Below, one piece after another: positions 358 to 45,566 of a stretch of 64,000 nucleotides of DNA. A model generated the notes under the pieces. That model did no database searches and was not told the DNA's origin. It saw nothing but the letters and a program-made list of their open reading frames with translations. Position 1 is the first letter of the stretch; each line of letters begins with the position of its first letter. Origin of the DNA: an uncultured Candidatus Rokubacteria bacterium (GTDB lineage: Bacteria; Methylomirabilota; Methylomirabilia; Rokubacteriales; DASRDR01); contig CAWDVE010000024.1 of NCBI GenBank assembly GCA_963805625.1, forward strand, positions 64,001 through 128,000, given 5' to 3'. The translations under genes were made by a program, and so were the position numbers.

Positions 358-710
358 GCTCCAGGGTCGGCCGGTTTCTCCCTGTGAAAGTCGGCGCCCG
401 GGCCAGGCCATTCCAGGGTTGGCCTCACGGCTAAGGAGCCGGAGGCGCACAGAGGCTGGCGATGCTCGTATCCTGGTGGGAGGAGTAGGTTCGTCTGTGG
501 AGCGCGTCGCGTGAAGGGTGGAAGCAACCACGGAAGAAGCCCCGCACCCTCGGCGCTCACGGAACGAGGGGACATCGTCTTCGACTGGACACTGATCGTC
601 GCCGGACAATGGGCCGGGGCCAGCGACGAGTCGCCCCGAGTGGCGCGCCGGGTCCCAAGGCGACTGGCTCGCAGGTCGCCCGTCCGCGCCGTGGCAGAAA
701 GGCTGCCGAC

Positions 711-3700: not shown

Positions 3701-6700
3701 GCCCCCGCGCGTCGACCCGACGCAGGGGCTGTCGGCGTCGGATGCGAGGCTCCTCCGCTCGACCGCGCGCCGCACGTGGCGGTTCTTCGAAGCGTTCGTC
3801 GGTCCGGGCGATACGTTCCTGCCGCCTGACAACTTCCAGGAGGACCCGGCGCCGGTCCTCGCCCACCGCACGTCGCCGACCAACATCGGGCTGTATCTCG
3901 GGGCGATCGTCGCCGCCCGCGATCTCGGCTGGCTCGGGATGCTGGAGACCGTCGACCGGCTCGAGGCGACGCTCACGACGATGGGGCGGCTCGAGCGCTT
4001 CCGGGGCCACTTCTACAACTGGTATGAGACGACCGACCTTCGCCCGCTGGAGCCCCGCTACGTGTCCACGGTGGATAGCGGGAATCTGGCGAGCCAGCTC
4101 CTCGTTCTGGGAAATGCCTGCCGCGGGGCGCTCGAGCGCCCGCTACTCGATCACGAAGCCTTCGCCGGAATCGAGGACGCCGTATTGCTCGTACGCGAGG
4201 CGGCGAATGCCCTCGTGGATGACCGGCGCACGCAAACGGTGAGGCTCGGCCATCTGGACCAAGCCTGCGAGGCGCTGGTCATGATGCTGCGCGACCCACC
4301 TCGACCGGCGGCCGACTGGGTCGTCCGCTTGGGTCAGCTCGCCGGCCAGGCCGATGCCCTGGTGGACATCACACGCACGTTGACGGCGGAGCGCGGCGAT
4401 GGCGAGGACTCAGACGTCCTCGTCTGGGCGCAGGCGACGCGCGCCACCATCGCGAGCCACACGCGCGACCTCGACCGGCAGATGCCGTGGGCATCCCGTC
4501 TCGAGGCCGTCGTCGCCGACCTCCCCCCCGCGTCCCGCGAGGCCGCGATCGCGAGCCGGGCCCTCTGCTCCTCGTTTCCCACCCTGGCCGCGCTGGCTGA
4601 CCTCTGCGAGTGTGCGGTCAGTGAGCTCACGGCCATGCTCGACGGCGGCCCTCGCGCCGGATCCGCCCGTGGGGGTCGAGTCGAGCACGTCCACGAGCTC
4701 ATCGGACAGCTGGAGGGCGCGGCCGTGGCGTCACGAGCGCTCGTCGAGCGCCTCTCCGCCATCGCCCGCGTCACGAAGCAGCTCTTCGATGCGATGGACT
4801 TTGGCTTCCTCTTCCACTCTGCACGCAAGATCTTCTCGATCGGCTATCGCGTCACGGAGGGGAGTCTCGATCCGAGCGCGTACGATCTCCTCGCCTCCGA
4901 GGCGCGGCTCGCGAGCTTCATCGCGATTGCCAACGGCGGGGCACCCACGTCGCACTGGTTCCACCTGGGTCGCCCGATGACGCCCGTTGGGCTCGGGGCG
5001 GCGCTGGTGTCCTGGTCCGGCTCGATGTTCGAGTACCTGATGCCGGCGCTCGTCATGCAGGCGCCACCCGGAAGCTTGCTCCAGCGGACGTATCGCCTCG
5101 TCGTCCAGCGTCAGATCGGGTACGGTGCGGAGCACGGGATTCCCTGGGGCATCTCCGAATCGGCGTACAACGTGCGCGATCTCGACCTGACCTACCAGTA
5201 TTCGAACTTCGGGGTTCCGGGTCTGGGTCTCGAGCGGGGCCTCAGCGAGGACTTGGTCGTCGCGCCCTACGCGACCGCCCTGGCCGCCATGATCGACCCG
5301 AGTGCCGCCGCCCGTAACTTCACGCGCCTCATCGCGGTGGGCGGGAGGGGATTCTACGGCTTCTACGAGGCGTTGGACTACACGCCGTCCCGGCTCCCGG
5401 CGGGGACGACCGTGGCGATCGTTCGTGCCTACATGGCGCACCATCAGGGCATGACCCTCATCGCGCTGGCGAATGTGCTCCGAGATGGGGTGGTGCGCGC
5501 GCGATTCCACGGCGAGCCCATCATCCAGGCGACCGAGCTTCTCTTGCAGGAGCGCGTGCCCCGGGACGTGGCGGTGGCGAGACCGCGGGCGGAAGAGGTG
5601 CAGGCGCCGGCCCATGTGCGGGAGTTCGTGGAGCCGTCCTTCCGTCAGTTCACGTCTCCGCACGACCCGACGCCGCGGACGCACCTGCTCTCCAACGGCC
5701 GGTACACGGTGATGCTGACGACCGCGGGTTCGGGCTACAGCCGGTGCGCGGAGCTCGCCGTCACTCGATGGCGGGAGGATGTCACCCGGGATCACTGGGG
5801 GACCTATCTCTTCCTGCGGGATGTCCAGAGCGGGGCGGTATGGTCGGCGGGGTATCAGCCTACCGGAGTCGAGCCGGACGACTATCGCGCGACCTTCTCG
5901 GAGGACCGGGCCGAGTTGTATCGGCGCGATGGCGCCATCACGACCACGCTCGAGGTGCTGGTCTCGCCGGAGGCCGACGCCGAGCTGCGGCGGGTGTCCG
6001 TCATGAACCTGGGGGGGCAGACACGAGAGATCGAACTGACCTCCTACGCCGAGCTCGTGCTGGCGCCGCCGGCGGCGGATACCGCGCATCAGGCCTTTTC
6101 CAGCCTCTTCGTCCAGACGGAATGGGTAGCCGATCTCGGGGCCCTGCTGGCGACCCGCCGTGGCCGGTCGGCGACGGACCCGGCGATCTGGGCGGCCCAC
6201 ATCGTCGTCGTCGAAGGCCAGTCCGGTGGAGGGACTCAATACGAGACCGACCGCGGGCGGTTCCTCGGCCGGGGTCGCGGGGTCCGCACCCCGATGTCGG
6301 TCGTCGACGGGAGGCCCCTCTCGAACACGACCGGCTCGGTGCTCGATCCAATCTTCAGCCTCAGACGGCGAGTCCGTCTCGCGCCGGGAGAGAGCGCACG
6401 CCTCATCTTCTCCACGTTCGTCGGCCCGTCGCGCGAAGCCGCCCTGGCGCTCGCCGACAAGTATCGCGACCCCGCGACGTTCGAGCGGACGGTCACGCTG
6501 GCCTGGACGCGGGCGCAAATCCAGCTCCATCATCTCGGGGTTCGCGCGGACGAGGCCCGCCTGTTTCAGGATCTTGCAGGCCGGATTCTCTACGCGGACG
6601 CGACGCTTCGGCCCGCGGCGGTGATGTTGCGGCAGAATGCGTCCGGACCCGCGGCCCTGTGGGCCCACGGGATCTCCGGCGACCTCCCGATCGTCCTGGT

Positions 6701-33140: not shown

Positions 33141-33443
33141 CATCACCTCGGGCTCTTCGAGCAGCGCGGGGTGCCATCGTCCGACGAGCGCGTGGCGCGG
33201 ATGCATCACTCCCCGTGGAAGGTGGGGGAGCCCACGGACCTCGTACGCGCGCGGCAGCGGCTGATCGAGACCGGGGCGCTGGTGGGCTCGTCGAACCACG
33301 GGGTGAGCCTGTCGCTCTACGCGAAGGATCCCGACGGGCTCGAGTTCGAGGTCTTCTGGACGGTCCCGGATGGCAAGCCCGTCGGCACCAGACCGCTCCA
33401 TCTCGAGGCCGAGCTGGCCCGGCGCGGCATCACGGTGTCGTAG
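33140..33443 (+). pseudogene. VOC/glyoxalase protein, 5'-truncated
   Basis: HHLGLFE, then after a frameshift NHGVSLSLYAKDPDGLEFEVFW. Confidence 0.75.
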
Positions 33444-33477
33444 GGCGCTCCGGGGCCGCGCCTCGTTAGGGGCCCTG

Positions 33478-34551
33478 ATGGATTCCGGCGAGACCGACGC
33501 AGATCGAGGGCGCCTCGGGGGTCTGCAGGATGCCTTCGACCAGGCGTGGCGCGCTGCCGAGGCACGTCGCGAGTCGCACTACGTCTTGCTCGGTCGGCCC
33601 GTGCGCATCCGCATCGCCGGCGGCGCCCTAGCGGCCCACATTCATGAGGCCTTCGCGCACCTGAGCGCGGGCGCAACCGTGGACGCGCCCCGCCTCACGG
33701 TCGACCTCTGGGACGTGCGGGAGACGGGCGTGCCCGTTCCCGACGACGGGGTGCGCTGCGTGGGCGAGCAGACCTGGGGGCCGGCCGAGGACCGCTTTGC
33801 CGCCACTCACGATCGGCGCGTCGTCGGCACCCACCTGCCCGGCAGCGGCGCGTGGCTCGACCGGCGCGCCGGGCACGCGATCGGCTGGTTCGCGGACGGC
33901 GATGGCCTCACGACGCACGAGCGGAGCAAGCCGCTCTACGCGCTGCTCGCTGTCTGGGCCAGCGATCGCGGCGTCCACGGCGTTCACGCCGCGCTGGTCG
34001 GCCGCGATGGGAGCGGGGTGCTGGTCCCGGGCGGTAGCGGTGCGGGGAAATCGACGGTCGCCCTCGCCTGCCTCTGCGCAGGGCAGACCTACTTCGGCGA
34101 CGACTGGATCGGACTCGCCCGCGTCGGCGACGTCTTCGAGGGCTACGGGTTCTATGGCGCCGCACTCCTGGAGGCACGCCACGCCACGCGTTTCCCGCTG
34201 CTCCAGCCCCACATTGTTCGCCCTCCGGGCCCAGGCGAGGGGAAGGCGCTCCTGCCGCTCGCGAGCGCGTTTCCCGAGCGGCTCGGACATTCGACGCGCG
34301 TGCGCGCGCTGGCCCTGCCACGCATCGTCGCGAGGTCGGGGACGCGGGTTGGCCCCGCCTCGCCGCGCGAGGCGCTGCTGACGCTCATGCCCAGCTCGGT
34401 CTTCATGATGCGGCCCCGCGGTGGACGCGCCGGAATCGAGCGCCTGGCCCAGCTCGCCCGCGAGCTCCCAGCGTACTGGCTCGAGATCGGCAGCGACCTG
34501 GACGACATCCCCCGAGGCGTCGACGAGATCCTGGTGCGCGCGACGACGTGA
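33478..34551 (+). CDS. HPr kinase-related P-loop kinase
   Basis: VHAALVG...GVLVPGGSGAGKSTVAL, YFGDDW, GKA; HprK-like core. Confidence 0.85.
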   Translation: MDSGETDADRGRLGGLQDAFDQAWRAAEARRESHYVLLGRPVRIRIAGGALAAHIHEAFAHLSAGATVDAPRLTVDLWDVRETGVPVPDDGVRCVGEQTWGPAEDRFAATHDRRVVGTHLPGSGAWLDRRAGHAIGWFADGDGLTTHERSKPLYALLAVWASDRGVHGVHAALVGRDGSGVLVPGGSGAGKSTVALACLCAGQTYFGDDWIGLARVGDVFEGYGFYGAALLEARHATRFPLLQPHIVRPPGPGEGKALLPLASAFPERLGHSTRVRALALPRIVARSGTRVGPASPREALLTLMPSSVFMMRPRGGRAGIERLAQLARELPAYWLEIGSDLDDIPRGVDEILVRATT

Positions 34552-35708
34552 ACCGCCCTTGGCCCGACGGCCTGTGTCTCCTGCTACCGACCTCGGAGGA
34601 GACTGATCTCCTGCGCGCCTGCTTGTGGTCGGGGCCGGGGGGACGCGAGGCCTGGGAGCGGTGGCAAGGGCGTGTGGGCGGGGTGCGCCGGGGGCTCGGC
34701 GACGAAGCCGTGAAGCCGTTGCTCCCGCTGCTCTATCACGCCGTGCGCCGGAACGAGCTCGCGGTCGAGCCCCGCGTGCGCACCACCCTCGGCGCGGCGG
34801 TGCTCGCGGAGACGCTCCGGAGCGCGACCTACCAGCGGATCTGCGCGCGGGCCTGTGCGGCCGTCGAGGGGGCCTCCGTTCCGTTCCTCGTGCTCACGGG
34901 CGCGGCGCTGGGGGACACCGTCTATCCCGCAGGGGCGCTCCGGCACTCGCACGACGTCGACCTGCTCGTCGAGGCGCGCGACCTGGACCGCGCCACCGAG
35001 GCCCTGCGGCGTGGCGGCTTCACGCTGGTTCCCGGCCGGTGCGCGGACCCCGAGCAACGGGAGCTGCGCGACGAGTCCGGCCTCCCGATCCAGCTTCACT
35101 CCCGCCTGTTTCCCGTGCGCTACTACGCCATTGCCCTGGACGGCATCCGGGCCCGGGCCCAGGTCTCTGCGATCGCGGGCCGGCGCGTGCCCACGCTTTC
35201 CGCGGCCGACCACCTCGTGCACGTCTGCGGGCTGGCTGCCTGCGCGGGCCGCGGTCGGTCGCTGAAGTGGGTGTTCGACGCCTGGTACCTCATCGCCCGG
35301 CACCCTGAGCTGGACGGCCAAGCCCTTCTCCGGATGGCGTCCGATGCCCGCGTCGTGCTGCCGCTGACCGTGCTCCTGGGCTACCTGGCCGATCAGCTCG
35401 AGGCCCGCCTGCCGAGCCAGCTGCTCGCCGGGCTGGCGGCCGCCGCCGCGAGGACCGATCGGACCGCGCGCGAAGTCGCCCTGTTCGGGGTGCGTGCCGG
35501 CGGCCGGGGGACGCTTCGCAACCTCTGGCGGGCCACGCGCAGCTGGCGCGACGGAGCGGATCTGGTCCGCTGGATGCTCGTGCCGACGCCCGCCAGCTTG
35601 CGATTCGGCTGGCGGTTCCATGATTCTCGGCCCGTGGCCGCCGGCTATGTCCTGCGGCCCCTGTCCTACCTTCTGCGCCGCCTCGGATCGTGGCGGGGCG
35701 CCGCCTAG
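34548..35708 (+). CDS. Nucleotidyltransferase family protein (NTP_transf_5-like)
   Basis: VPFLVLTGAALG...YP...LRHSHDVDLLV, IQLH, KWVFD; overlaps the kinase stop (GTGA). Confidence 0.85.
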   Translation: MNRPWPDGLCLLLPTSEETDLLRACLWSGPGGREAWERWQGRVGGVRRGLGDEAVKPLLPLLYHAVRRNELAVEPRVRTTLGAAVLAETLRSATYQRICARACAAVEGASVPFLVLTGAALGDTVYPAGALRHSHDVDLLVEARDLDRATEALRRGGFTLVPGRCADPEQRELRDESGLPIQLHSRLFPVRYYAIALDGIRARAQVSAIAGRRVPTLSAADHLVHVCGLAACAGRGRSLKWVFDAWYLIARHPELDGQALLRMASDARVVLPLTVLLGYLADQLEARLPSQLLAGLAAAAARTDRTAREVALFGVRAGGRGTLRNLWRATRSWRDGADLVRWMLVPTPASLRFGWRFHDSRPVAAGYVLRPLSYLLRRLGSWRGAA

Positions 35709-35838
35709 GCGCGGGCCATGGTGGCCGTCGCCGGCGGCTGACGGCGGCCGGGGACCCCGCCTGCCGGTGCCGTCCAAGGTGAATGAGGGAGGCTACGAAT
35801 CGCAGTATCATGCAGGTCGACGTGCACAGGAGGTGGCG

Positions 35839-36291
35839 ATGCTGACGAACGACACTCGCCTGCGTCCGAACGACGCCGAGGTCGCGGCCGAGGTGATGGA
35901 TGGTGAGGCGATTCTGATCAACCTCGCCACCGGCGCGTACTACTCCATGGACAAGGCCGGCGGGCTGGTCTGGCAGTCGATCCAGCAGCACTGCTCGCTG
36001 GAGGAGATCGCCCAGCGGCTCACCGGCAGCTACGCCGTCTCGATCGAGCAGGCGCGCGCCGACGTGACCCGGCTCGGGTCCGAGCTGCTGGAAGCGCACC
36101 TCGTCACGGTCTCGACGGATGCCGCCCCCAGCGGTGATGCGTACGTCCCCCCGCCCGAGCGGCTGCTCTACGAGTCACCCACGGTGTCGGCTTACAGCGA
36201 CCTGCGCAACCTGCTCGCCCTCGATCCCCCGATGCCGTCCCTGGAGACCCTCCAGATCGAGGATCCGAGACGGGGGCCGTCCACCGCATGA
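35839..36291 (+). CDS. PqqD-family RiPP recognition element (RRE) with a C-terminal peptide extension
   Basis: AGGAGGT RBS; VAAEVMDGEAILINLATGAYYSMD..G.LVW; tail YESPTVSAYSDLRNLLALDPPMP. Confidence 0.88.
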   Translation: MLTNDTRLRPNDAEVAAEVMDGEAILINLATGAYYSMDKAGGLVWQSIQQHCSLEEIAQRLTGSYAVSIEQARADVTRLGSELLEAHLVTVSTDAAPSGDAYVPPPERLLYESPTVSAYSDLRNLLALDPPMPSLETLQIEDPRRGPSTA

Positions 36292-36298
36292 TTGGCAC

Positions 36299-37045
36299 GT
36301 GACCGGCGCCCTGGTGAGCTGCGTCGTCCCCGTGTTTAACGGGGAGCGCTACCTGCGGGAAGCGCTCGACAGCATCCTGGCCCAGACCTATCGGCCGCTG
36401 GAGGTCGTCGTGGCGGACGACGGCTCGACCGACAGCACGGTGGAGATCGTGGCTGGCTACGCCGACGCCGTGCGCTACGTCCGACAGGACAACGCCGGTG
36501 CCCCGGCGGCCCGCAACCTCGGTCTCGATAACGGGCGAGGTGACTTCATCGCCTTCCTCGACGCCGACGACGTCTGGCACCCGGAGAAGCTGGCCCGGCA
36601 GATGGCGCGCTTCGACGCGCGCCCCGACCTCGATCTCTGCGTCACCCACCTGCAGGCGTTCTGGATCGCCGAGCTGAAGGAGGAGGCGGCGAGATTCCGC
36701 GATCACCCACTGTCGGGGCCGCTGCCCGGGTATTCCACGGTGACCCTGTTGGCGCGACGCGCGCTGTTCGAACGGGTCGGCCGCTTCAACGTCGCGCTGA
36801 GCGTCGGCGATCCCATGGAGTGGTTCCTTCGTGCCGCCCACGAGGGCGCGGTGATGGAGCTGCTGCCGGAAACCCTTGTGTACCGGCGCATGCACCAGCG
36901 GAACCTGTCGTGGGATGTCGACGAAACCCGGCGCATGACGACGGCGATGCAGGCCTCGGTTCTACGGGTGGTGAAGGAGTCGCTCGATCGCCGGCGCCGC
37001 GAGGGATCGGCGGTGCGCGCCTACGACATCCCGGGGCCTCGATGA
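36299..37045 (+). CDS. Glycosyltransferase family 2
   Basis: VSCVVPVFNGERYL, DDGSTD, ARNLG, FLDADD. Confidence 0.93.
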   Translation: MTGALVSCVVPVFNGERYLREALDSILAQTYRPLEVVVADDGSTDSTVEIVAGYADAVRYVRQDNAGAPAARNLGLDNGRGDFIAFLDADDVWHPEKLARQMARFDARPDLDLCVTHLQAFWIAELKEEAARFRDHPLSGPLPGYSTVTLLARRALFERVGRFNVALSVGDPMEWFLRAAHEGAVMELLPETLVYRRMHQRNLSWDVDETRRMTTAMQASVLRVVKESLDRRRREGSAVRAYDIPGPR

Positions 37046-37764
37046 GCCGGGCCCTGGTGAGCTGCGTCGTCCCCGTGTTCAACGGGGAGCGCTACCTGCG
37101 GGAAGCGCTCGACAGCATCCTGGCCCAGACGTATCGGCCGCTGGAGGTCGTCGTGGCGGACGACGGCTCGACCGACGGCTCGGCGGCGGCGGTGGCCGCC
37201 TACGGTGACCGGGCGCGCTGGCTGAGCCAGCCCACGGCGGGGCCGGCCGCGACGCGCAACCTCGGCCTGCGGGCCGCCCGCGGGGAGTTCGTCGCGTTCC
37301 TCGACGCCGACGATCTCTGGCATCCGGAGAAGCTGTCGCGCCAGGTCGCGCGCTTTGCGGCGCTGCCGGAGCTCGGCGTCTCGGTGACCCATATTCAGAA
37401 CTTCTGGATCGCCGACCTGGTGGAGGAGGCCGCGCGGCTTCGCGACGATCCGCGCGCAGGCCCGCTTCCCGGATACGTCACGATGACGATGATGGTGCGC
37501 CGGACGCTGTTCGACTCGGTCGGGCCGTTCGATGAATCCCTGTGGCACACGGACGCCGCCGACTGGTTCGTGCGCGTCGCCGCCCAGGGCGTCGTGATAG
37601 AGATGCTGCCCGATGTTCTCGCCCACCATCGCATGCACCGCACCAACCTCAGCCGCCGGATGGGGCCTGGCTCGCGCCGGGAGTTCGTGGGCATGGTGAA
37701 GCGGTCGCTCGACTGGCGACGGCGCTTCGGTGAGCCGGCGCCTCCGTTCCTGGCCTTCGACTAG
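37042..37764 (+). CDS. Glycosyltransferase family 2 (paralog)
   Basis: Same motifs; ATGA overlap with the preceding gene. Confidence 0.93.
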   Translation: MSRALVSCVVPVFNGERYLREALDSILAQTYRPLEVVVADDGSTDGSAAAVAAYGDRARWLSQPTAGPAATRNLGLRAARGEFVAFLDADDLWHPEKLSRQVARFAALPELGVSVTHIQNFWIADLVEEAARLRDDPRAGPLPGYVTMTMMVRRTLFDSVGPFDESLWHTDAADWFVRVAAQGVVIEMLPDVLAHHRMHRTNLSRRMGPGSRREFVGMVKRSLDWRRRFGEPAPPFLAFD

Positions 37765-37787
37765 GGTGGCGCCGGGCGGGGGTCGAG

Positions 37788-38903
37788 GTGCGGGTCCTCG
37801 TGTGGCAGGAGCCCTTCGGCCCTGGGCGCGGCGGCGTGCACACGATGGCGGAAGCGCTGCTCCCGGCCCTGCGGGGACGCGGTCACGACCTCGCCGTCGT
37901 CTCCCGACAGGACGCGACCGACGGCCCGCAGCGGGGGATGTGGAAAGGGATTCCCGTCTACCGATTCCCGCTCTGGCAAGCCCTCGAGAGCGCTGATCCC
38001 GCAGCGATCATGCGATGGCGACGCGAGATCGAGCGGCTCGAGCGCGACTTCGCGCCGGAGCTGGTTCATCTCAACTCCTTTGGTCCGACGGCCCTCTATC
38101 ACCTGGAGGCGAGGCGGGCCGCCCCCCCGCCGCTCCTCGTCACCCTCCACTCGTCGAACGTCTTGGTCCCCGGCTCCGCGACCGTGCTGCGACGGACCCT
38201 GCGGGCCGCCAGCTGGACGACCGCATGCTCGCATGCGCTACTCGCGCAGGCCCGACGGGTGGCCCCGGAGATCGAGGCGCGGTCGTCCGTCATCCACAAC
38301 GGCGTCGATCCTCCGGTCGGCGCGCCCTCGCCGCTTCCGTTCGACGAGCCCCGGGTGCTCTGCCTGGGTCAGCTCGCCCCCCACAAGGGGTTCGACCTGG
38401 CCATCCGAGCCTGCGCGGTGGTCCGCGCCCGATTTCCACGGTTGCGGCTGATCGTCGCCGGGGAAGGTCCGGCGAGGCGCGACCTGGAGGCGCTGGTCGA
38501 GCGGGAAGGCCTCGGCGCCGCGGTCGACTTCGTCGGCCGCGTAGCGCACGCCGATGTGCCAGAGCTCCTCGACACCGTCACGCTGGTCGCGCTGCCGTCG
38601 CGGCGCGAGGCGTTCCCACTCGTCGCGCTCGAGGCCGCGGTAATGGGCCGCCCAGTCGTGGCCGCTCGCGTCGATGGGCTGCCCGAGGCCGTGGCCGACC
38701 GGGAGACTGGCCTGCTGGTGGACCCGGAGAGCCCGGTGGCGCTCGCCGCGGCGATCACGTTCCTCCTGACCCACCCCGACGCGGCCGTGGCCATGGGCGC
38801 GGCCGGGAGGCGCCGCGCCGCGCGGGAATTCGGGCTGGCGCGGCACGTGGACGCCTACGATAGGCTGTACCGGACGCTGCGGGAAGGGCCGGTGCCGGGA
38901 TGA
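37788..38903 (+). CDS. Glycosyltransferase family 4
   Basis: VIHNGVD, HKGFD, PSRREAFPLVALEA, GLPEAV. Confidence 0.93.
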   Translation: MRVLVWQEPFGPGRGGVHTMAEALLPALRGRGHDLAVVSRQDATDGPQRGMWKGIPVYRFPLWQALESADPAAIMRWRREIERLERDFAPELVHLNSFGPTALYHLEARRAAPPPLLVTLHSSNVLVPGSATVLRRTLRAASWTTACSHALLAQARRVAPEIEARSSVIHNGVDPPVGAPSPLPFDEPRVLCLGQLAPHKGFDLAIRACAVVRARFPRLRLIVAGEGPARRDLEALVEREGLGAAVDFVGRVAHADVPELLDTVTLVALPSRREAFPLVALEAAVMGRPVVAARVDGLPEAVADRETGLLVDPESPVALAAAITFLLTHPDAAVAMGAAGRRRAAREFGLARHVDAYDRLYRTLREGPVPG

Positions 38904-39712
38904 AGACCATCGACAACCTCGAGATCCACCTCGTTCACAGTTGTAATCTGGCTTGCGAGGGCTGCTCGCACTATTCCAACCAGGGACACCGGGGGATGAT
39001 CTCGCTCGAGGAAGCGGACGCCTGGATGCGTCAGTGGAACCGGCGGGTGAGCCCGCGCACCTTTTCGCTGCTGGGGGGCGAGCCCACGATTCATCCGAAG
39101 CTCGTCGACTTCGTGTCCCTGAGCCGCCGGAACTGGCCCGAGGCGCGGCTCCAGCTGGTGACCAACGGCTTCCTGCTAGACCGGCATCCGGACCTGCCGG
39201 TCGTCCTCGGCAACGACCCGAATGCCTGCATCTCGCTCTCGATCCATCACGCCTCACCGCAGTATCGCGACCGGCTCCTGCCCGTCGTCCGGCTCCTCGT
39301 CGAGTGGACCCGCCGCCACGGTGTGCAGATCGACTTCCGGCCATCCCACGGAAGCTGGACTCGCCGGTACAAGGGGTTCGGGGCCTCGATGGAGCCCTTC
39401 GACGACGGCCGGCCGCGGGAGAGCTGGGAGCGCTGCCCGGCGAAGTACTGCAAGCAGCTGTTCCGGGGCGAGTTGTGGAAGTGCGCCCCGATCGCCTATC
39501 TGCCGATGCAGCACGCGAAGTACGGGCTCTCCGCAGCGTGGAAGCCCTATCTCAAGTACAAGTCGCTGGCGCCCGGCTGCACGGACGAGGAGCTCTCGGC
39601 GTTTCTTGCCCTAGAGGACGAGTCCTGCTGCCGGATGTGTCCGGCCGAGCCGGAGCGCTTCGAGATGCCGCTGCCCTTCCCGTCTCGCGCTTTCGTCCGC
39701 ACGCCCCGATAG
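38900..39712 (+). CDS. Radical SAM protein with C-terminal Cys-rich (SPASM/twitch-like) region
   Basis: CNLACEGC (CxxxCxxC), LLGGEP, VTNG; C-terminal CPAKYC, LWKC, CCRMC. Confidence 0.9.
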   Translation: MKTIDNLEIHLVHSCNLACEGCSHYSNQGHRGMISLEEADAWMRQWNRRVSPRTFSLLGGEPTIHPKLVDFVSLSRRNWPEARLQLVTNGFLLDRHPDLPVVLGNDPNACISLSIHHASPQYRDRLLPVVRLLVEWTRRHGVQIDFRPSHGSWTRRYKGFGASMEPFDDGRPRESWERCPAKYCKQLFRGELWKCAPIAYLPMQHAKYGLSAAWKPYLKYKSLAPGCTDEELSAFLALEDESCCRMCPAEPERFEMPLPFPSRAFVRTPR

Positions 39713-40279
39713 CGTCGGGTTTCCTCGGGCGCCACGGCCCTCCGGCCGGGCGAGGGTGACGGTGTCGTCCCGCTGGGCGCCGCCGACGCGTGGCCGCCCG
39801 GGCCGACCACCAGCGTCGACCCTCCTCGTTCATGGTCCGATGCGCTCTATTGACATCGGGCCCACGTTGGGTCGACGCGGATGATCCGAAAGCGCCGGGA
39901 CCGCCCGTCGGGAAGATCGAACATGCGTATCCGATTCTGGGGGACTCACTCATCCCCTCAACCCCTTGACGGCTTTCACCCCTCGGCCATAGCGTAGCTC
40001 TACCAGCGAAGGACAACCCTATGAGCTGTCGAGTTACGCGAGCCCTGCCCCTCATCCTGCTCGGCACTACCGCCTGTGGCGATGCGACCATCACCGCCAC
40101 GTCACACTTCCCGAAGCGAGACGAGGACAACCGCGGCGCCACGGTTCGCGTCGTGGCTGAAGAGGCTCCGCAGAGGAGCGAGCCCGAGATCAGCCATCCA
40201 TGAGAGTCGAGGCCCAAACCTGCCCTGCGCTGGCGCCGGCGCCGTGACTCGGTCGTCTGATTTCCTGGGGGCCTGTGGG

Positions 40280-41533
40280 GTGGCCCTGTGCCGTCTGGCG
40301 CATCCGCTGGTTCGCAAGATCCTGAAGAACCTCGCCCTGGTGGCCCTTGGCCTGGTTGTCGGGCTCCTGCTCGCCGAGCTCGCTCTTCGCGTGCTCGCCC
40401 GCTTCAACGCCCCGGTGAGGTACCTGGCGACGATTGGCGCCGCTCCTGAACGGCCGGTCTTCGCTAACCTCGAGGCCTACCTAGCCTCGCAACGCCCTCA
40501 GGTGGAGCCGCACCGTGACGTTCTCAACTTCTGGACCAACTCACTCGGACTGAACGACGTCGAATTCGTCGTGCCGAAGCCGCCGGGCCGCTTTCGAATC
40601 CTGGCGCTGGGCGACTCGTTCACGTACGGCTCCGTCCCCTACCCGGACGCTGTCATGACGCGGCTCGAGGAGGCCCTTCGGGCAAGCTGCCCACGGGTCA
40701 GCCTCGACCTGCTCAACTTCGGCATCGGCGGGGCGGGCGTCTGGGACTACAAGACACTCCTCGAACTGGCAACCGAAACATTCGACCCCGACCTCGTCCT
40801 CGTGAACTTCTACATGGGCAACGATGGTCCCGACCTATACGTCCGTCCGCGATCGTCCACGCGGCGGCGCCTGTCGATTCGGCGCTCCTATCTCGTCAGA
40901 TACGTGCGCAACGCGTTGGCGCTTGCGACGGGTCTCGAGCGGCAGCGTCGAGTTACAGGCCCAAGCCCACGCTCGCCTGGTTCGCCGGGCGCCCAGGGTG
41001 GCATGCTGGTGAATCCTGAGAGCTCCCTGCAACCGGACGATTCACGCCTGACGGGACCGAGCTTCACCGAGGAGAAGTTCCTTGAGATCATGAGTGTTGA
41101 GCTCCGCCGATTCTCGCGGCAGTTCGAGTCGGATGACCCGGAGCGTGCATGGCAGGCCACACTGACGATACTCGACCTCCTCCGGCACGAGATCACGGGA
41201 CGGGGCCATCGCCTAGTCATGACCCTCTACCCATCGGAACTCCAGGTCGACTCCAAGAAGGGATCCGAGCTCGTGGAGGAGCTTCGCCAGCAGTCGCGAT
41301 TGGCGAGCCTCTTGCCGGTACACATCGACCCGCAGATCCCCAACCGGATCTTGCTCGACCACTGCCGACGCGTCGGGATGGACTGCTACGATGTGACGCC
41401 CGACCTCATCGCCGCGAGCAGGGAGTCGGCCGAGCCGCTGTACAAGAAGCGCGACACGCATTGGACCGTTCGAGGCAACCGGGTGGTGGCCGAGGCTCAG
41501 GCGCGCTGGCTGCGCCGCATCGTGTGTCCCTAG
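40280..41533 (+). CDS. Membrane-anchored SGNH/GDSL hydrolase (AlgJ/AlgX-like)
   Basis: N-terminal TM LAELALR, ILALGDSFTYG, NFGIGG, MGND, DTHW; start uncertain. Confidence 0.85.
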   Translation: MALCRLAHPLVRKILKNLALVALGLVVGLLLAELALRVLARFNAPVRYLATIGAAPERPVFANLEAYLASQRPQVEPHRDVLNFWTNSLGLNDVEFVVPKPPGRFRILALGDSFTYGSVPYPDAVMTRLEEALRASCPRVSLDLLNFGIGGAGVWDYKTLLELATETFDPDLVLVNFYMGNDGPDLYVRPRSSTRRRLSIRRSYLVRYVRNALALATGLERQRRVTGPSPRSPGSPGAQGGMLVNPESSLQPDDSRLTGPSFTEEKFLEIMSVELRRFSRQFESDDPERAWQATLTILDLLRHEITGRGHRLVMTLYPSELQVDSKKGSELVEELRQQSRLASLLPVHIDPQIPNRILLDHCRRVGMDCYDVTPDLIAASRESAEPLYKKRDTHWTVRGNRVVAEAQARWLRRIVCP

Positions 41534-41663: not shown

Positions 41664-44600
41664 CTAGCGCCGGTGGACGAGCGACACCGCCGCCACCGAC
41701 CCCTCTCCGTGGCACACTTCACAGGTCTCGATGTTCCCCAACGTGTTGATCGCCGCGTGCGTCGCCGCGATCACCGAGTCGTGGCACGTGAGGCACGCAT
41801 CCGTAATCGGCAGGATGCTGCCCGTCACCGTCTCGGTCGACGGCGGTGTCACCTGGCTCAGCCGAGTCGGTAGGAGGTTCGACGGGAGCGGCAGCAGCTG
41901 GCTGCCATTCACGTGGCACGTCGCGCAGTCCCTTCGGTCCCCCGGGAAGCGGATCTCGCTGAAGTCGTGCGCCGTGTAGTTCTGCGGGGCCGATCCGAAG
42001 CCGTACACGATGTACGGCTTGTTCTCGAGTTCCTCTCCGGTGTGAACCTTGTGGAGCAGGTGCTTCAGGTTGATGGGCTCATTCGCGAGGTCTGGGCTCG
42101 GGGTCCCGGCCTGAGTCTGGCCATAGGTGTAGGCATTCACGCGGCGCGTGAAGTCGCTCACGTTCGGGTTGTGGCAAATGACGCAGTGGTTCGTCTGGTT
42201 GCGTGAGCCTCCGTGCACGGCGAAGCCCTGCGAGAAGACCCCGTGGCACTGCTGGCAGTTGCCGATCGCCACCACCGTGCGCCGAGGCACCACGGGCGAG
42301 CCGTCCACGCTGAAGTCCCGCACCGGGTTCTGAGCGAACTCGGTGACGGTGGTGGGGCCGCCGACCAGGTTGACGTTGGCGACCGCGCGGCGGGCTTCAA
42401 GCCCGACGCGCCAGGTTCCGGTGGCATCTGCCGGCAGCTTGTTCGCGCCCGTCGTCGTGAACGTGAAGGCGTCGACGCCGTCGAACACGGCACCCGTCAC
42501 GTTCTGACTGAGCATGGGCGCGGAACTACCGCCGAAGTCGGTTGTGGGCCCGCTGGCCCTGAGGCTGATCGTGCCGATCGGAGCGGAAAGGCTGGTGATC
42601 GGGCTGTTATCATCGCCGTTCTTGAGACGGAATTTGACCGTGATGCCGTTCCCGGGGGTCCCCGACGCGTCCAGCAGCTCGGCGACGAGCCCCCGCAGCT
42701 GCAGCGACTGCTGGGGAATGGTATGGGCCCCGGTCACCGAGACGGTCGCCTCGTTGGCCACCGTCCCGTCTCCGGGCGTGTGGCAGCCGGCGCAGGCCGC
42801 CTCGGGCGCGGCGCCGCCGCCGTGGGGCTTGCCGTTGCTCTTGAACCCGGCCGGAATTGTCCCGAGGTTCGACTGGGGCGGTGTCACGATGTCCGCCGTG
42901 CTCGGGTTCACGTCGTCGTGGCATCCGGTGCAGGCGGGTGTCGACGGCAGGGTTCGGAACGTGTGCGCGGTGGCCCCGCCGGTGTGGCACTTGGTGCAGT
43001 TCCGGACGTCCTGCGGGAAGCCCACCCCCGTCACCGCCGTCCCGGTGCAGGTGCCGGTCCCGCAGTCGGGGTCACCGGTGCAGGGCGCGCCCTCCTTCGG
43101 GCCCAAGACGCAGACGTTGATCTTCTCGGAGAACACCGTGTTCCCGACGGCGAACTTGGTGCCCACCGGGCCGGCCACGACCGACGGAAGCTCCTTGCCG
43201 CGGTGGATCTTATGGATCATCACCCTGAAGTTGAGGCTGCCCGCGTCGGGATCGACGAGCTGTTCCGTATGGCAGAGCATGCAGAGGCGCACTTCGCGCC
43301 GGCCGCCCCCGTGGACCGCCAGAGGGTTGTGGCACTCGTTGCACGCCGCCGTGGACACCGGCTCGCGCTGAAGGGTCAGCGCGCTCCTCCCCGGATTGCA
43401 GGCCACCCAGACCCCGCCGGTGAAGGCGGGGTTATAGGCGAAGAAGGAGCCGATGGGTCCGGGGACCTCAAGGCCCGTCGCGCCGTCGAAGGCGCGGACG
43501 TGGGGGCCGCCGCCGGGCCCGGCGCCCGTCACCACGTCCAGGATTCCGTCGCCGGTTAAGTCGCACGCCGCGACCTGTACGCCCCCGGTAAACGTCGGGT
43601 CGTAGGCCCACAGTTCGAGACCGGCCGCCGTCCCGAGGCCGGTGAAGCCCCGGACGTGAGGGCCGCCGCCGGGCCCGGCGCCGGTGATGATCCGGGCCTC
43701 CGTCGAGCCCCGGAGGCTCCCGCATGCGACGAACACCCCGCCGGCGAATGCGGGGGCGTAGGCCAGGAAGGTCGACAGCTGCTGCGCCGGATTCTGTCCG
43801 TTGAACACCGTGACGCGCGGCTCTCCGCCGGGCCCGGCGGCCGTCACGATGTCGGCCCGCCCGTCGTTGTTCACGTCGCACGCCGCGACCCGCACGCCGC
43901 CGGTGAAGGCGGCGTCGAAGGCGAAGAACGACGCGACTTCGGCGCCGGTCTTGCCGTCGAACGCGCGGACATGGGGGCCGCCGCCCGCGTCGGCGGCGGC
44001 GATCACGTCCGGCGTGCCGTCCCCGGTGACATCGCCGCACGCCACGAATACGCCCCCGGTAAAGGCCACATCGAAGGCCATGAACGACCCGATCGGCCCG
44101 GGCAGCACCGCCCCGGTCACTCCGTCAAAGGCCCTGACGTGGGGCCCCCCGCCCGGGCCGGCGCCGGAAACTACATCGACGACGCCGTCACCGGTCAGGT
44201 CGCACACGGCCACGCGCGCGCCGCCGAGGAAGGCAGGGCTATAGGCGAAGAAGTCGCCCGGCGTCCCGGGGAGCGGCAGACCGAGGACGCTGTTGAAGCC
44301 GCGGATGTGAGGCCCGCCCCACGACCCGGCACCGGTCGTCGGGCGCCCGTCGGGCACGAAATCGAAGATCGGGTTTGCAGCGAGGCGCCCCCCGTCAAAG
44401 AACCGGTCGACCTGCCCTCCGATCGTGTGAACCAGGGCCGCGGACCCGGGAAAGGGCGCCGGCAGCGTCCTGCCGAAGGTGTATCGGTAGGTGCCCGTGC
44501 CCTGATCCTCGAGCAGGAAGCTCCCGCCCGTATCGAAGGTCGGCTCTCCGGACGCGTTGAGGAGGTAGTTCATGTAGCGCGTGAACTGGACGGTGCTGGC

Positions 44601-44900
44601 GCCGTCCGTCTGCTCGTTGACCTCCAGCCGCGCGATGGCGAAGCGGACCCGGGCCAGGACGGGGTCAGAGGCGGACGAGACCGCACTTGCGGTGGGCGTG
44701 AGGGGGACGCCGGCCGTGTCGGTGAGGGTGAACCTCACGCTCGCGATCCCGGTGTCGCTCACCGAGGCGGCCAGGATGGCCACCTCGAGGCCGGGTCCGG
44801 GGAGCGGCACCGGCGGCGCGCTCGCGCTCTGGAGAAAGCCGAGGATCAGGACCAGAAGAACGGAGGGAGTGACCGTCTGAACGCCCTTCGGACGCCGCAT
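41664..44900 (-). CDS. Decaheme c-type cytochrome, OmcA/MtrC family, with an inserted FG-GAP/VCBS beta-propeller
   Basis: Ten CxxCH motifs in two pentaheme blocks; HKIH and HKVH axial motifs; HGGxR; signal peptide; six GAGPGGGPHVR...GGVxVAxxD repeats. Confidence 0.92.
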   Translation of the reverse strand: MRRPKGVQTVTPSVLLVLILGFLQSASAPPVPLPGPGLEVAILAASVSDTGIASVRFTLTDTAGVPLTPTASAVSSASDPVLARVRFAIARLEVNEQTDGASTVQFTRYMNYLLNASGEPTFDTGGSFLLEDQGTGTYRYTFGRTLPAPFPGSAALVHTIGGQVDRFFDGGRLAANPIFDFVPDGRPTTGAGSWGGPHIRGFNSVLGLPLPGTPGDFFAYSPAFLGGARVAVCDLTGDGVVDVVSGAGPGGGPHVRAFDGVTGAVLPGPIGSFMAFDVAFTGGVFVACGDVTGDGTPDVIAAADAGGGPHVRAFDGKTGAEVASFFAFDAAFTGGVRVAACDVNNDGRADIVTAAGPGGEPRVTVFNGQNPAQQLSTFLAYAPAFAGGVFVACGSLRGSTEARIITGAGPGGGPHVRGFTGLGTAAGLELWAYDPTFTGGVQVAACDLTGDGILDVVTGAGPGGGPHVRAFDGATGLEVPGPIGSFFAYNPAFTGGVWVACNPGRSALTLQREPVSTAACNECHNPLAVHGGGRREVRLCMLCHTEQLVDPDAGSLNFRVMIHKIHRGKELPSVVAGPVGTKFAVGNTVFSEKINVCVLGPKEGAPCTGDPDCGTGTCTGTAVTGVGFPQDVRNCTKCHTGGATAHTFRTLPSTPACTGCHDDVNPSTADIVTPPQSNLGTIPAGFKSNGKPHGGGAAPEAACAGCHTPGDGTVANEATVSVTGAHTIPQQSLQLRGLVAELLDASGTPGNGITVKFRLKNGDDNSPITSLSAPIGTISLRASGPTTDFGGSSAPMLSQNVTGAVFDGVDAFTFTTTGANKLPADATGTWRVGLEARRAVANVNLVGGPTTVTEFAQNPVRDFSVDGSPVVPRRTVVAIGNCQQCHGVFSQGFAVHGGSRNQTNHCVICHNPNVSDFTRRVNAYTYGQTQAGTPSPDLANEPINLKHLLHKVHTGEELENKPYIVYGFGSAPQNYTAHDFSEIRFPGDRRDCATCHVNGSQLLPLPSNLLPTRLSQVTPPSTETVTGSILPITDACLTCHDSVIAATHAAINTLGNIETCEVCHGEGSVAAVSLVHRR

Positions 44901-45041
44901 ATGCACCTCCACGCGACCGGCGAAGAAGTCAGCCCCAGCGTTCCCGGCGAGCCATGCGAGCGGACCTCCCTGCCGGATGCATCGCGATCCCGCGGCGCAG
45001 GCCAGGTTAGTGTCTTCCAGACTCTCGTACTCTGTCAATGG

Positions 45042-45065: not shown

Positions 45066-45566
45066 CAGACGACCCCGAGTTCGAGCGTGCAACGGGGTCA
45101 CAAGCTCATGATCGGTCGTGGAACGGGGTGTGTCAGCGGTCCACGTCGAGGCGTACCTCAGTCAGCCTGCGCACCGTAGATAGGCAGCTCGTCCAGGAAG
45201 AGCACCCCCCAGGTGGGCCAGGCTGACCTCGCCGGGATGCGGCGGCCGGCCTCCCACCCACGAGTCCCGCGGCCGAGACCGTGTGGTGCGGGGTCCGGAA
45301 CGGTCGCCGCGTTCCGAGGCCTTTCGGGCACCGGCGTCTGCGGCTACTCGAACAGGCCGGCCTGCTCGGGTTGTCAGGGGTGGGGCGCTTCAACCTGGAG
45401 CTCCTGGGTCAACCTGGCGAGGCCTCGGGCGGTCAAGGTCGTGGGGCCCGGGCGCCGTGGGCTGTGAGAGGCGTGGCCGCCGAACTGAGAAAGCCCACGT
45501 TTCGAGATCGAACCAGGTGGTATTGGCCGGGTTTCGCCACGATGATCTCGGGGATTCGCTTGGAAT

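What the first reader, a model, noticed from the sequence alone, without database searches (positions are those of the whole stretch)
41664..44900. Decaheme MtrC/OmcA cytochrome with an inserted integrin-like FG-GAP propeller
Seen: ten CxxCH motifs in the MtrC 5+5 layout. Between the first beta-domain and heme 1 (about 44335-43390) lie six ~52-aa repeats (GAGPGGGPHVRAFDG...FFAY.PAF.GGV.VA.CD..GDG..D). The signal peptide has no lipobox Cys, and no mtrA/mtrB genes are adjacent. Knowledge: MtrC/OmcA are surface lipoproteins for extracellular electron transfer; FG-GAP repeats form Ca2+-binding adhesive propellers. Inference: an adhesin-cytochrome hybrid that could dock a heme wire onto minerals, an S-layer or partner cells. 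I know of no described example of this architecture.
Basis: partly seen in the sequence, partly recalled or inferred. Interest (0 to 1): 0.85.

Follow-up and report, generated by a model that had tools for sequence, protein, structure and literature searches.

The report
Decaheme cytochrome with inserted propeller tether
A soil and sediment bacterium carries an MtrC-type ten-heme electron-transfer protein that lacks the usual lipid anchor and its usual partner genes but has a whole six-repeat domain, predicted to fold as a beta-propeller, inserted into it, which likely ties the protein to the cell's own surface sugars or biofilm matrix.

Summary
Observation confirmed. Window 41664-44900 (-) encodes a 1078-aa OmcA/MtrC decaheme (TIGR03507 above cut-off; 10 CxxCH, 10 invariant distal His). 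It has no lipobox and no domain-III disulfide. A 321-aa six-repeat FG-GAP/VCBS unit sits cleanly in the domain I-II linker and models as a six-bladed propeller (integrins have seven). It is not a chimera: an independent 80%-identical fused protein exists, and contigs from other studies bridge both junctions. The fusion is rare: 2 of 80 aligned MtrC homologues. The host is a Methylomirabilota bacterium, and the gene was in 1 of 251 phylum genomes. Its cytochrome groups with Binatia-type MtrC from mtrCAB operons, yet no mtrAB was found here. The same propeller ends four other secreted host proteins and many unrelated ones, so it is a generic module. Best reading (0.45): a non-covalent tether to the cell's own glycans or matrix, replacing lipid anchor and MtrAB docking. 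Against this, a close relative lacks both anchor and propeller, and no binding is shown. No paper found with this architecture. The scan noted a different (14-heme, actinobacterial) cytochrome-propeller fusion on other DNA. New variant of a known kind.

The parts
41664..44900 (-). Gene for a 1078-aa OmcA/MtrC-family decaheme cytochrome with an inserted propeller (P0001)
44906..44910 (-). Shine-Dalgarno-like GGAGG, 5 nt before the ATG
   Evidence: sequence
44817..44900 (-). Sec-type signal peptide (about residues 1-28): basic n-region, about 10-residue h-region, no lipobox Cys; likely cut after S27 (inferred from the S-x-S/A-P register shared with P0002 and P0003)
   Evidence: no signal-peptide predictor was run
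44349..44816 (-). MtrC domain I (beta domain), residues about 29-184
   Evidence: alignment; model
43386..44348 (-). Inserted six-repeat FG-GAP/VCBS unit, residues 185-505, predicted six-bladed beta-propeller with Velcro closure; one Cys per repeat
42711..43385 (-). MtrC domain II, hemes 1-5 (distal His 530, 563, 566, 693, 726)
43047..43112 (-). 4-Cys mini-insert (residues 597-618) between hemes 2 and 3, shared with 75 of 92 MtrC homologues examined
42291..42710 (-). MtrC domain III (beta domain), no Cys, so no CX8-15C disulfide
41667..42290 (-). MtrC domain IV, hemes 6-10 (distal His 896, 950, 953, 1048, 1076)
45183..45327 (-). Degenerate 145-bp comM/YifB-like fragment upstream of the gene (80% identical to an intact gene at G000:C17); possible integration scar
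   Evidence: the name comM/YifB is recalled from the motif, not from a family scan

Best explanation
This is an MtrC/OmcA-type decaheme cytochrome without a lipid anchor, likely acquired sideways without its mtrAB partners and likely exported to the cell exterior, where the inserted domain, predicted to be a six-bladed propeller, would hold it by binding the cell's own surface or matrix polysaccharide. Steps: (1) Sec export and heme attachment in the periplasm. The signal peptide and the CcmC/CcmF-like genes are seen; the process is inferred. (2) Passage through the type II secretion system. The genes are seen; the substrate is inferred from Shewanella MtrC/OmcA. (3) The propeller loops out of the domain I-II linker and leaves the ten bis-His hemes intact. 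This is predicted by the model and supported by the conserved ligands. (4) Its Asp-rich loops would bind Ca2+ for stability and it would grip a glycan, replacing the lipid anchor and MtrAB docking. This is inferred by analogy to Bap1/RbmC and is untested. (5) Electrons would come from a different porin-cytochrome-like cluster on contig C13, or from soluble shuttles, and pass to or from Fe/Mn oxides or humics. This is inferred and the direction is unknown.
For: Intact heme machinery: 10 CxxCH plus exactly 10 non-motif His invariant in 80 of 80 aligned homologues. The full model has pLDDT 87 and pTM 0.80; its top 15 Foldseek hits are OmcA, MtrC, UndA and MtrF. The insert matches end to end the terminal module of secreted proteins in the host family. 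In the host genome four other signal-peptide-like proteins end in it: Fn3/InlB-repeat, GDSL-like, subtilase and beta-helix-like (the GDSL and beta-helix labels are my reading of the sequence). Of 149 propeller proteins from two searches, 72 have it at the C-terminus, 40 near the N-terminus and 37 internally, and 83 have six blades. Partners include proteases, an L,D-transpeptidase, GSDH, DUF11, Ig and cadherin domains (67 of the 149 scanned). Anchors vary in this clade: of 92 homologues, 11 have a lipobox, 59 a Cys-rich N-domain, 7 a short N-terminus and 15 were unclassified. No MtrB was found in the 99.9%-complete genome with a home-built profile that finds MtrB in 27 of 86 control loci (best own hit E 0.56), while 3 of 3 closest named homologues have mtrAB adjacent. 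GspD is above cut-off within a gsp-like cluster. A barrel-like protein flanked by 3-, 4-, 6- and 11-heme cytochromes lies at G000:C13. The propeller is as conserved between P0001 and P0002 (80%) as the heme part (80%). Precedent: the Bap1/RbmC propeller binds the cell's own exopolysaccharide (PMC10102183 and bioRxiv 10.64898/2026.08.03.742583, passages); Bap1 appears at Foldseek rank 29 with TM 0.40.
Against: P0003 (83% identical) has no lipobox, no Cys-rich domain and no propeller. It groups with the propeller-bearing P0002 (98/96; AU p=0.019 against P0001+P0002), so this lineage tolerates having no visible tether; P0003's genomic context could not be fetched. No ligand is shown. The repeats lack the GW sugar-pocket motif of PVL/tachylectin (sequence against PMC8023676). 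Fold matches are generic and flat (Z 22.9 to 18, 6-16% identity at the top), and Bap1 is eight-bladed and a weak match. Export to the exterior is not shown; a cleaved signal peptide alone gives a periplasmic protein. The C13 cluster is unlinked and its barrel has no Pfam or NCBIfam hit; the atlas neighbours with porin families score only 0.84-0.88. Host origin of the propeller is only weakly supported (group support 81), and the host genome's own copies rank 33rd or lower of 205 by score.
Confidence: 0.45

Rival explanations
1. The propeller is a secretion or sorting tag, or a periplasmic scaffold-binding domain, not a glycan tether. It would route diverse cargo to the type II system, or hold a periplasmic decaheme relay or electron buffer in place.
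For: The module sits mostly at termini of unrelated exported proteins. A Bap1 construct lacking its propeller was not properly secreted (PMC10102183 passage). A diheme protein also carries the module (P0288), so periplasmic transit is shared. The signal peptide alone predicts the periplasm.
Against: Here the module is internal. P0003 has none yet keeps the same signal peptide. Many partners (cadherin, Ig, Calx-beta, proteases) look extracellular.
Confidence: 0.2
2. One reading: an outward-facing adhesin that docks the heme wire onto minerals, an S-layer or partner cells.
For: Asp-rich Ca-type loops in four blades. Integrin alpha propellers are the top Foldseek hits of the isolated domain (TM about 0.5). 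ANME multiheme cytochromes carry S-layer or pectin-lyase-like docking domains (PMC9012536 passages).
Against: The same module serves enzymes with no mineral role. With no lipid anchor or MtrAB, an outward adhesin would leave the cytochrome unattached to its own cell. It has six blades, not seven.
Confidence: 0.15
3. A tolerated passenger: a mobile domain landed in a permissive linker of an orphan, laterally acquired gene and adds little function.
For: Only 2 of 80 aligned homologues have it. Clean absence in the nested relative P0003. The gene occurs in 1 of 251 phylum genomes.
Against: The propeller is as conserved as the heme domains over 20% divergence. The fused form occurs in contigs of several soil and sediment studies, including RNA libraries. 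The frame is intact and GC3 is 0.90 in all parts.
Confidence: 0.15
4. Assembly chimera or contaminant contig.
For: The genome is listed with 6.26% contamination, and the propeller is repetitive.
Against: P0002 is an independent fused copy at 80% identity. Contigs bridge the domain I/propeller junction in 4 of 4 DNA runs and the propeller/domain II junction in 3 of 4 (3 of 3 and 2 of 3 if X1, a possible source, is left out). GroEL on the same contig is 91-93% identical to same-genus copies, and the gene 1.7 kb upstream is 89-92% identical (DNA) in six same-genus genomes.
Confidence: 0.02

Closest known systems
Shewanella MtrC / OmcA / MtrF / UndA surface decaheme cytochromes (TIGR03507; PDB 4LM8, 4LMH, 3PMQ, 3UCP)
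   Same: Four-domain beta/heme/beta/heme layout, 5+5 CxxCH, ten distal His, fold match.
   Different: No lipobox, no CX8-15C disulfide in domain III, no mtrAB found in the genome, a 321-aa propeller in the domain I-II linker, and a 4-Cys mini-insert in domain II.
Binatia-type MtrC homologues (uncharacterised; e.g. P0013 = HLK10607.1, loci L050 and L077)
   Same: About 55% identity over domains I-IV, the same 4-Cys mini-insert, no lipobox; one clade with support 99.
   Different: They have an N-terminal Cys-rich domain and adjacent mtrA/mtrB genes; this protein has neither, and has the propeller.
Vibrio cholerae Bap1 / RbmC
   Same: Secreted modular proteins whose propeller anchors them to the cell's own exopolysaccharide while another domain does the outward job; weak fold match.
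   Different: Eight blades, not six; the partner is an adhesive beta-prism, not a heme wire; no sequence-level kinship was tested here.
Integrin alpha propeller and VCBS superfamily (PF01839, PF13517)
   Same: Four-stranded blades with an Asp-rich AB loop; both Pfam families above cut-off.
   Different: Six blades, not seven; GPGGGP instead of the GAP cage motif; no GW lectin motif.
ANME multiheme cytochromes fused to S-layer or pectin-lyase-like domains
   Same: A heme protein fused to a non-heme envelope-docking domain (PMC9012536 passages).
   Different: Archaeal, with unrelated cytochromes and docking domains, and often a membrane helix.

Membership tests
OmcA/MtrC decaheme family | Family HMM above curated cut-off | tested here: met
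   TIGR03507 366.1 bits against 209.3; PF22113 163.6 against 30
OmcA/MtrC decaheme family | Ten CxxCH in 5+5 layout with ten distal His | tested here: met
   (10 non-motif His invariant in 80 of 80)
OmcA/MtrC decaheme family | Four-domain fold | tested here: met
   Predicted model; top 15 Foldseek hits are OmcA/MtrC/UndA/MtrF, target TM 0.50-0.62; hemes not modelled
Shewanella-type surface MtrC/OmcA | Lipoprotein signal (lipobox Cys) | tested here: not met
   First Cys is residue 233
Shewanella-type surface MtrC/OmcA | CX8-15C disulfide in domain III (PMC4486940 passages) | tested here: not met
   No Cys between residues 706 and 882
MtrCAB conduit | mtrA and mtrB in the cluster or genome | tested here: not met
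   Home-built MtrB profile: 27 of 86 control loci, 0 hits in the genome (best E 0.56); no phmmer hit for MtrA/MtrB queries. TIGR03508 had no match over cut-off. TIGR03509 and PF11854 found nothing, but their controls did not pass cut-off either. The genome is 99.9% complete in 28 contigs.
MtrC/OmcA function | Surface location and electron transfer to extracellular acceptors | not testable with these tools
   T2SS and Ccm-like genes present; location and activity unmeasured
Integrin-type propeller | Seven blades, each with the FG-GAP/Cage motif (PMC3192720 passages) | tested here: not met
   Six repeats and six predicted blades
VCBS/FG-GAP propeller superfamily | Four-stranded blades with an Asp-rich DxDxDG-like AB loop | tested here: met
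   PF13517 52 bits against 26.9; motif-like loops in four of six repeats, between predicted strands A and B
VCBS/FG-GAP propeller superfamily | Ca2+ binding | not testable with these tools
   Motif only
PVL/tachylectin-type lectin propellers | GW motif in loop DA' forming the sugar pocket (PMC8023676) | tested here: not met
   The loop reads [YF]xxxF[TLA]GG; no GW in any repeat
Bap1/RbmC-like matrix-anchoring propellers | Direct binding of the cell's own exopolysaccharide | not testable with these tools
   Analogy only; fold match TM 0.40

The most novel reading that the evidence does not exclude
The six-bladed GPGGGPHV-repeat propeller is an unrecognised, portable surface or matrix tether used by Methylomirabilota, Planctomycetota and others on hundreds of secreted proteins. 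Here it has turned a laterally acquired, orphaned MtrC into a lipid-free, MtrAB-independent electron hub held in the matrix and fed by an unrelated porin-cytochrome conduit. With the separately noted actinobacterial 14-heme fusion, propeller-tethered multiheme wires would be a convergent third way, besides lipidation and S-layer fusion, to anchor extracellular electron transfer.
Probability: 0.25. Interest if true: 0.82.

Novelty: new variant of a known kind. Interest (0 to 1): 0.62.

Why it matters
If true, it shows that MtrC can work without its lipid anchor and without MtrAB when given a generic tether. It would give an abundant uncultured soil and sediment lineage a candidate route to extracellular electron transfer. 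It also offers a natural with/without pair (P0001 or P0002 against P0003) for finding the ligand of a widespread, uncharacterised propeller family. Two large Mtr surveys dropped proteins with extra domains or without the full mtrCAB set by design (PMC8805035 and PMC12133095 passages), so such forms would have been missed. The domain I-II linker tolerates a 321-aa domain, which is a useful site for engineering surface cytochromes.

Tried and rejected
Chimera or contaminant: rejected.

Common architecture: rejected within the searches run. Only P0001 and P0002 carry both parts in the 120 best word-index hits (7,996 candidates scored, lengths 592-1887 aa), the 150 best of 1.84 billion representatives and the 120 best junction-query hits. 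There were 0 blade hits in 86 fetched MtrC loci. Longer and shorter length classes were not searched with the word index.

An 'empty allele' joint in reads: none among the joints shown (15 of 68; 2 of 2); contigs cannot show absence.

Expression: RNA-library contigs hold the fused form (X17: one contig over 42449-44273; X18: both junctions; the same study). The flanks had no cover in 4 of 4 RNA runs. This is a weak hint, not proof of transcription.

TIGR03509 and PF11854 searches for MtrB were uninformative because the controls did not pass cut-off. The metagenome locus scan gave only distant hits. The atlas search of the propeller returned only unnamed FG-GAP clusters at 0.83-0.88. The propeller tree did not settle its donor. 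Excision between short repeats at the junctions was considered: it would give a linker one residue longer than P0003's, so it was not adopted.

No complex prediction was run, because no specific partner is claimed and hemes could not all be modelled.

Literature: 'MtrC'+'FG-GAP' gave 0 papers and 'decaheme'+'MtrC'+'VCBS' gave 0. 'Rokubacteria'+'MtrC' gave 4 and Methylomirabilota+multiheme+EET gave 7, both seen as listings only. Searches gave no description of this fusion in their listings. Only open-licence PMC and bioRxiv were searched, and no supplements were read; supplementary tables of Mtr surveys could list these proteins.
Full report
Observation. Window 41664-44900 on the minus strand is one open frame of 1078 aa, with a GGAGG 5 nt before the ATG. 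It has ten CxxCH motifs in two groups of five and scores 366 bits on TIGR03507 against a cut-off of 209. Ten further His are invariant in 80 of 80 aligned homologues, the number needed as distal ligands. Residues 185-505 hold six repeats of 55, 56, 52, 53, 52 and 43 aa, matching PF01839 and PF13517 above cut-off. The first Cys is at 233, so there is no lipobox. Domain III has no Cys, so the CX8-15C disulfide described as conserved in Shewanella proteins (PMC4486940, passages) is absent. A 4-Cys mini-insert at 597-618 is shared with 75 of 92 homologues.

The insert is clean and real. P0003 is 83% identical and lacks exactly the 321 residues, keeping the usual linker. The distance from the NPxxF motif to heme 1 is 23-26 residues in 87 of 103 proteins with eight or more hemes, about 340 in P0001 and P0002, and could not be measured in 14. 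In alignment A2, 78 of 80 MtrC rows have five or fewer residues under the insert. P0002, from a different source, has the same fusion at 80% identity in both parts. Assembled contigs bridge the upstream junction in 4 of 4 DNA runs from four studies and the downstream junction in 3 of 4; without X1, a possible source, the counts are 3 of 3 and 2 of 3. RNA-library contigs of one study also hold the fused form, which is a weak hint only. The contig belongs to the host genus.

Structure. The full model has pLDDT 87 and pTM 0.80; its best 15 Foldseek matches are OmcA, MtrC, UndA and MtrF. The insert alone folds at pLDDT 91 and pTM 0.91 into 24 strands. VIA-align ranks six-bladed YWTD, NHL and Kelch propellers first (Z 22.9-21, rmsd about 3 A, about 250 aligned, 6-16% identity), with integrins at Z about 18.6. 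Foldseek ranks integrin alpha first at TM about 0.5. It is therefore a six-bladed member of the VCBS/FG-GAP group (PMC8023676, parts 1-2 of 3 read), not a seven-bladed integrin-type domain (PMC3192720, passages). Four of six AB loops are Asp-rich. The GW sugar-pocket motif of PVL lectins is missing.

Where the parts come from. A CoxII of this genome shares a 90% cluster with a protein labelled Methylomirabilota. The cytochrome was found in 1 of 251 genomes of the phylum, the genome itself. In a 103-row tree without the insert, P0001-P0003 lie in a clade (support 99) with Binatia-labelled proteins and one labelled Limnocylindria. The three closest named loci all have mtrA- and mtrB-like genes adjacent. 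A profile of these MtrBs finds 27 of 86 control loci but nothing in this 99.9%-complete genome. Lateral gain of mtrC alone is thus the likely history; a degenerate comM-like fragment 280 bp upstream may be a scar.

The propeller, in contrast, is at home in the lineage. Four other host proteins end in it, 6 of 40 relatives have matches, and the insert aligns end to end with these terminal modules. Its exact donor is unresolved. Across two searches, 149 proteins carry two or more blades, mostly six and mostly terminal, on proteases, an L,D-transpeptidase, GSDH, DUF11, Ig and cadherin domains. Of 258 proteins with five or more blades, three have CxxCH: P0001, P0002 and the diheme P0288.

A result against a simple story: P0003, which lacks lipobox, Cys-rich domain and propeller, is sister to P0002 (98/96), and a P0001+P0002 clade is rejected (AU p=0.019; polarised shared sites 9 against 2 and 1). 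The propeller was therefore gained once and then cleanly lost or recombined away. It is dispensable in at least one close lineage, whose gene context I could not fetch.

Mechanism. The genome has CcmC- and CcmF-like WWD proteins (motif search), a GspD above cut-off in a gsp-like cluster, and an unlinked cluster on C13. That cluster holds 3-, 4-, 6- and 11-heme cytochromes, two NHL-repeat proteins with lipoprotein-like starts, and a barrel-like protein of about 680 aa. Shewanella MtrC/OmcA reach the surface through the type II system, and replacing the lipid signal makes MtrC soluble (PMC4486940, passages). In the Mtr complex electrons enter at heme 5, and heme 10 faces outward (PMC7198977, passages). 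A lipid-free MtrC with no MtrAB to dock on needs another hold. Its clade already varies its N-terminus: 11 lipobox, 59 Cys-rich, 7 short and 15 unclassified of 92. A module shared by many unrelated exported proteins most simply binds something common to the cell's own exterior, as the Bap1/RbmC propeller binds Vibrio polysaccharide (PMC10102183 and bioRxiv 10.64898/2026.08.03.742583, passages). I put this self-tether reading at 0.45, a secretion or periplasmic-scaffold tag at 0.20, the mineral or partner adhesin at 0.15, a passenger at 0.15 and an artefact at 0.02. Location, ligand, partner and direction of electron flow are all inferred.

Novelty. The cytochrome is a member of the OmcA/MtrC family by HMM, motifs and fold. 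It fails the lipobox, disulfide and mtrAB tests of the Shewanella system. Full-text searches for MtrC with FG-GAP or VCBS returned 0 papers (open-licence PMC and bioRxiv only, supplements not read). Two Mtr surveys excluded proteins with extra domains (PMC8805035 and PMC12133095, passages). Fusing hemes to docking domains has precedent in ANME archaea (PMC9012536, passages), and separate NHL-type propellers accompany EET clusters (PMC8322314, passages). The scan's own notes list a different 14-heme actinobacterial protein with an inserted seven-bladed propeller (unchecked). Verdict: new variant of a known kind, interest 0.62.

Noticed in passing
G000:C13:328881-337102 (locus L034): Porin-cytochrome-like cluster on the minus strand: NHL protein, 4-heme, 6-heme lipoprotein-like, c7-type triheme, a barrel-like protein of about 680 aa ending in Phe with no Pfam/NCBIfam hit, NHL protein, 11-heme. 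It lies beside a Rieske/cytochrome b/NapC-like multiheme cluster. The barrel was found in 1 of 20 other family genomes.
   Followed up: partly
window 45183-45327: Degenerate, frameshifted comM/YifB-like fragment 280 bp upstream of the gene, 80% identical to an intact copy on C17; possible integration scar.
   Followed up: partly
protein P0288: A 752-aa diheme protein (peroxidase-like by my reading; Pfam found only FG-GAP) with the same six-blade propeller at its C-terminus: a second heme-protein fusion of this module.
   Followed up: partly
loci L050, L057, L077 versus L046-L048, L055, L059, L062, L067, L074, L080, L095: Binatia-type MtrC splits into a non-lipidated, Cys-rich-N-domain group beside mtrAB, and a group beside a different protein of about 440 aa with small 7-, 4- and 2-heme cytochromes, possibly an undescribed conduit.
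   Followed up: partly
loci L076, L091, L109, L119 (archaeal labels); L071, L083, L085, L103, L104, L115, L120 (Chloroflexota labels): MtrC-like decahemes in records labelled Bathyarchaeia, Nitrososphaerota and Chloroflexota form one clade with support 100; binning not checked.
   Followed up: no
G000:C21:322213-323445: Secreted protein with only two propeller repeats followed by a collagen-like GPxGPx tract; it might trimerise to build a six-bladed propeller.
   Followed up: no
G000:C17:294412-296502: Propeller repeats split over several frames, suggesting a frameshifted gene or assembly error.
   Followed up: no
window 609-9518 (+): A 2970-aa ORF, not examined.
   Followed up: no
window 33370-41533 (+): Downstream convergent cluster: HprK-related kinase, nucleotidyltransferase, glycosyltransferases, radical SAM, SGNH/AlgX-like protein; possibly surface polysaccharide modification.
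   Followed up: no
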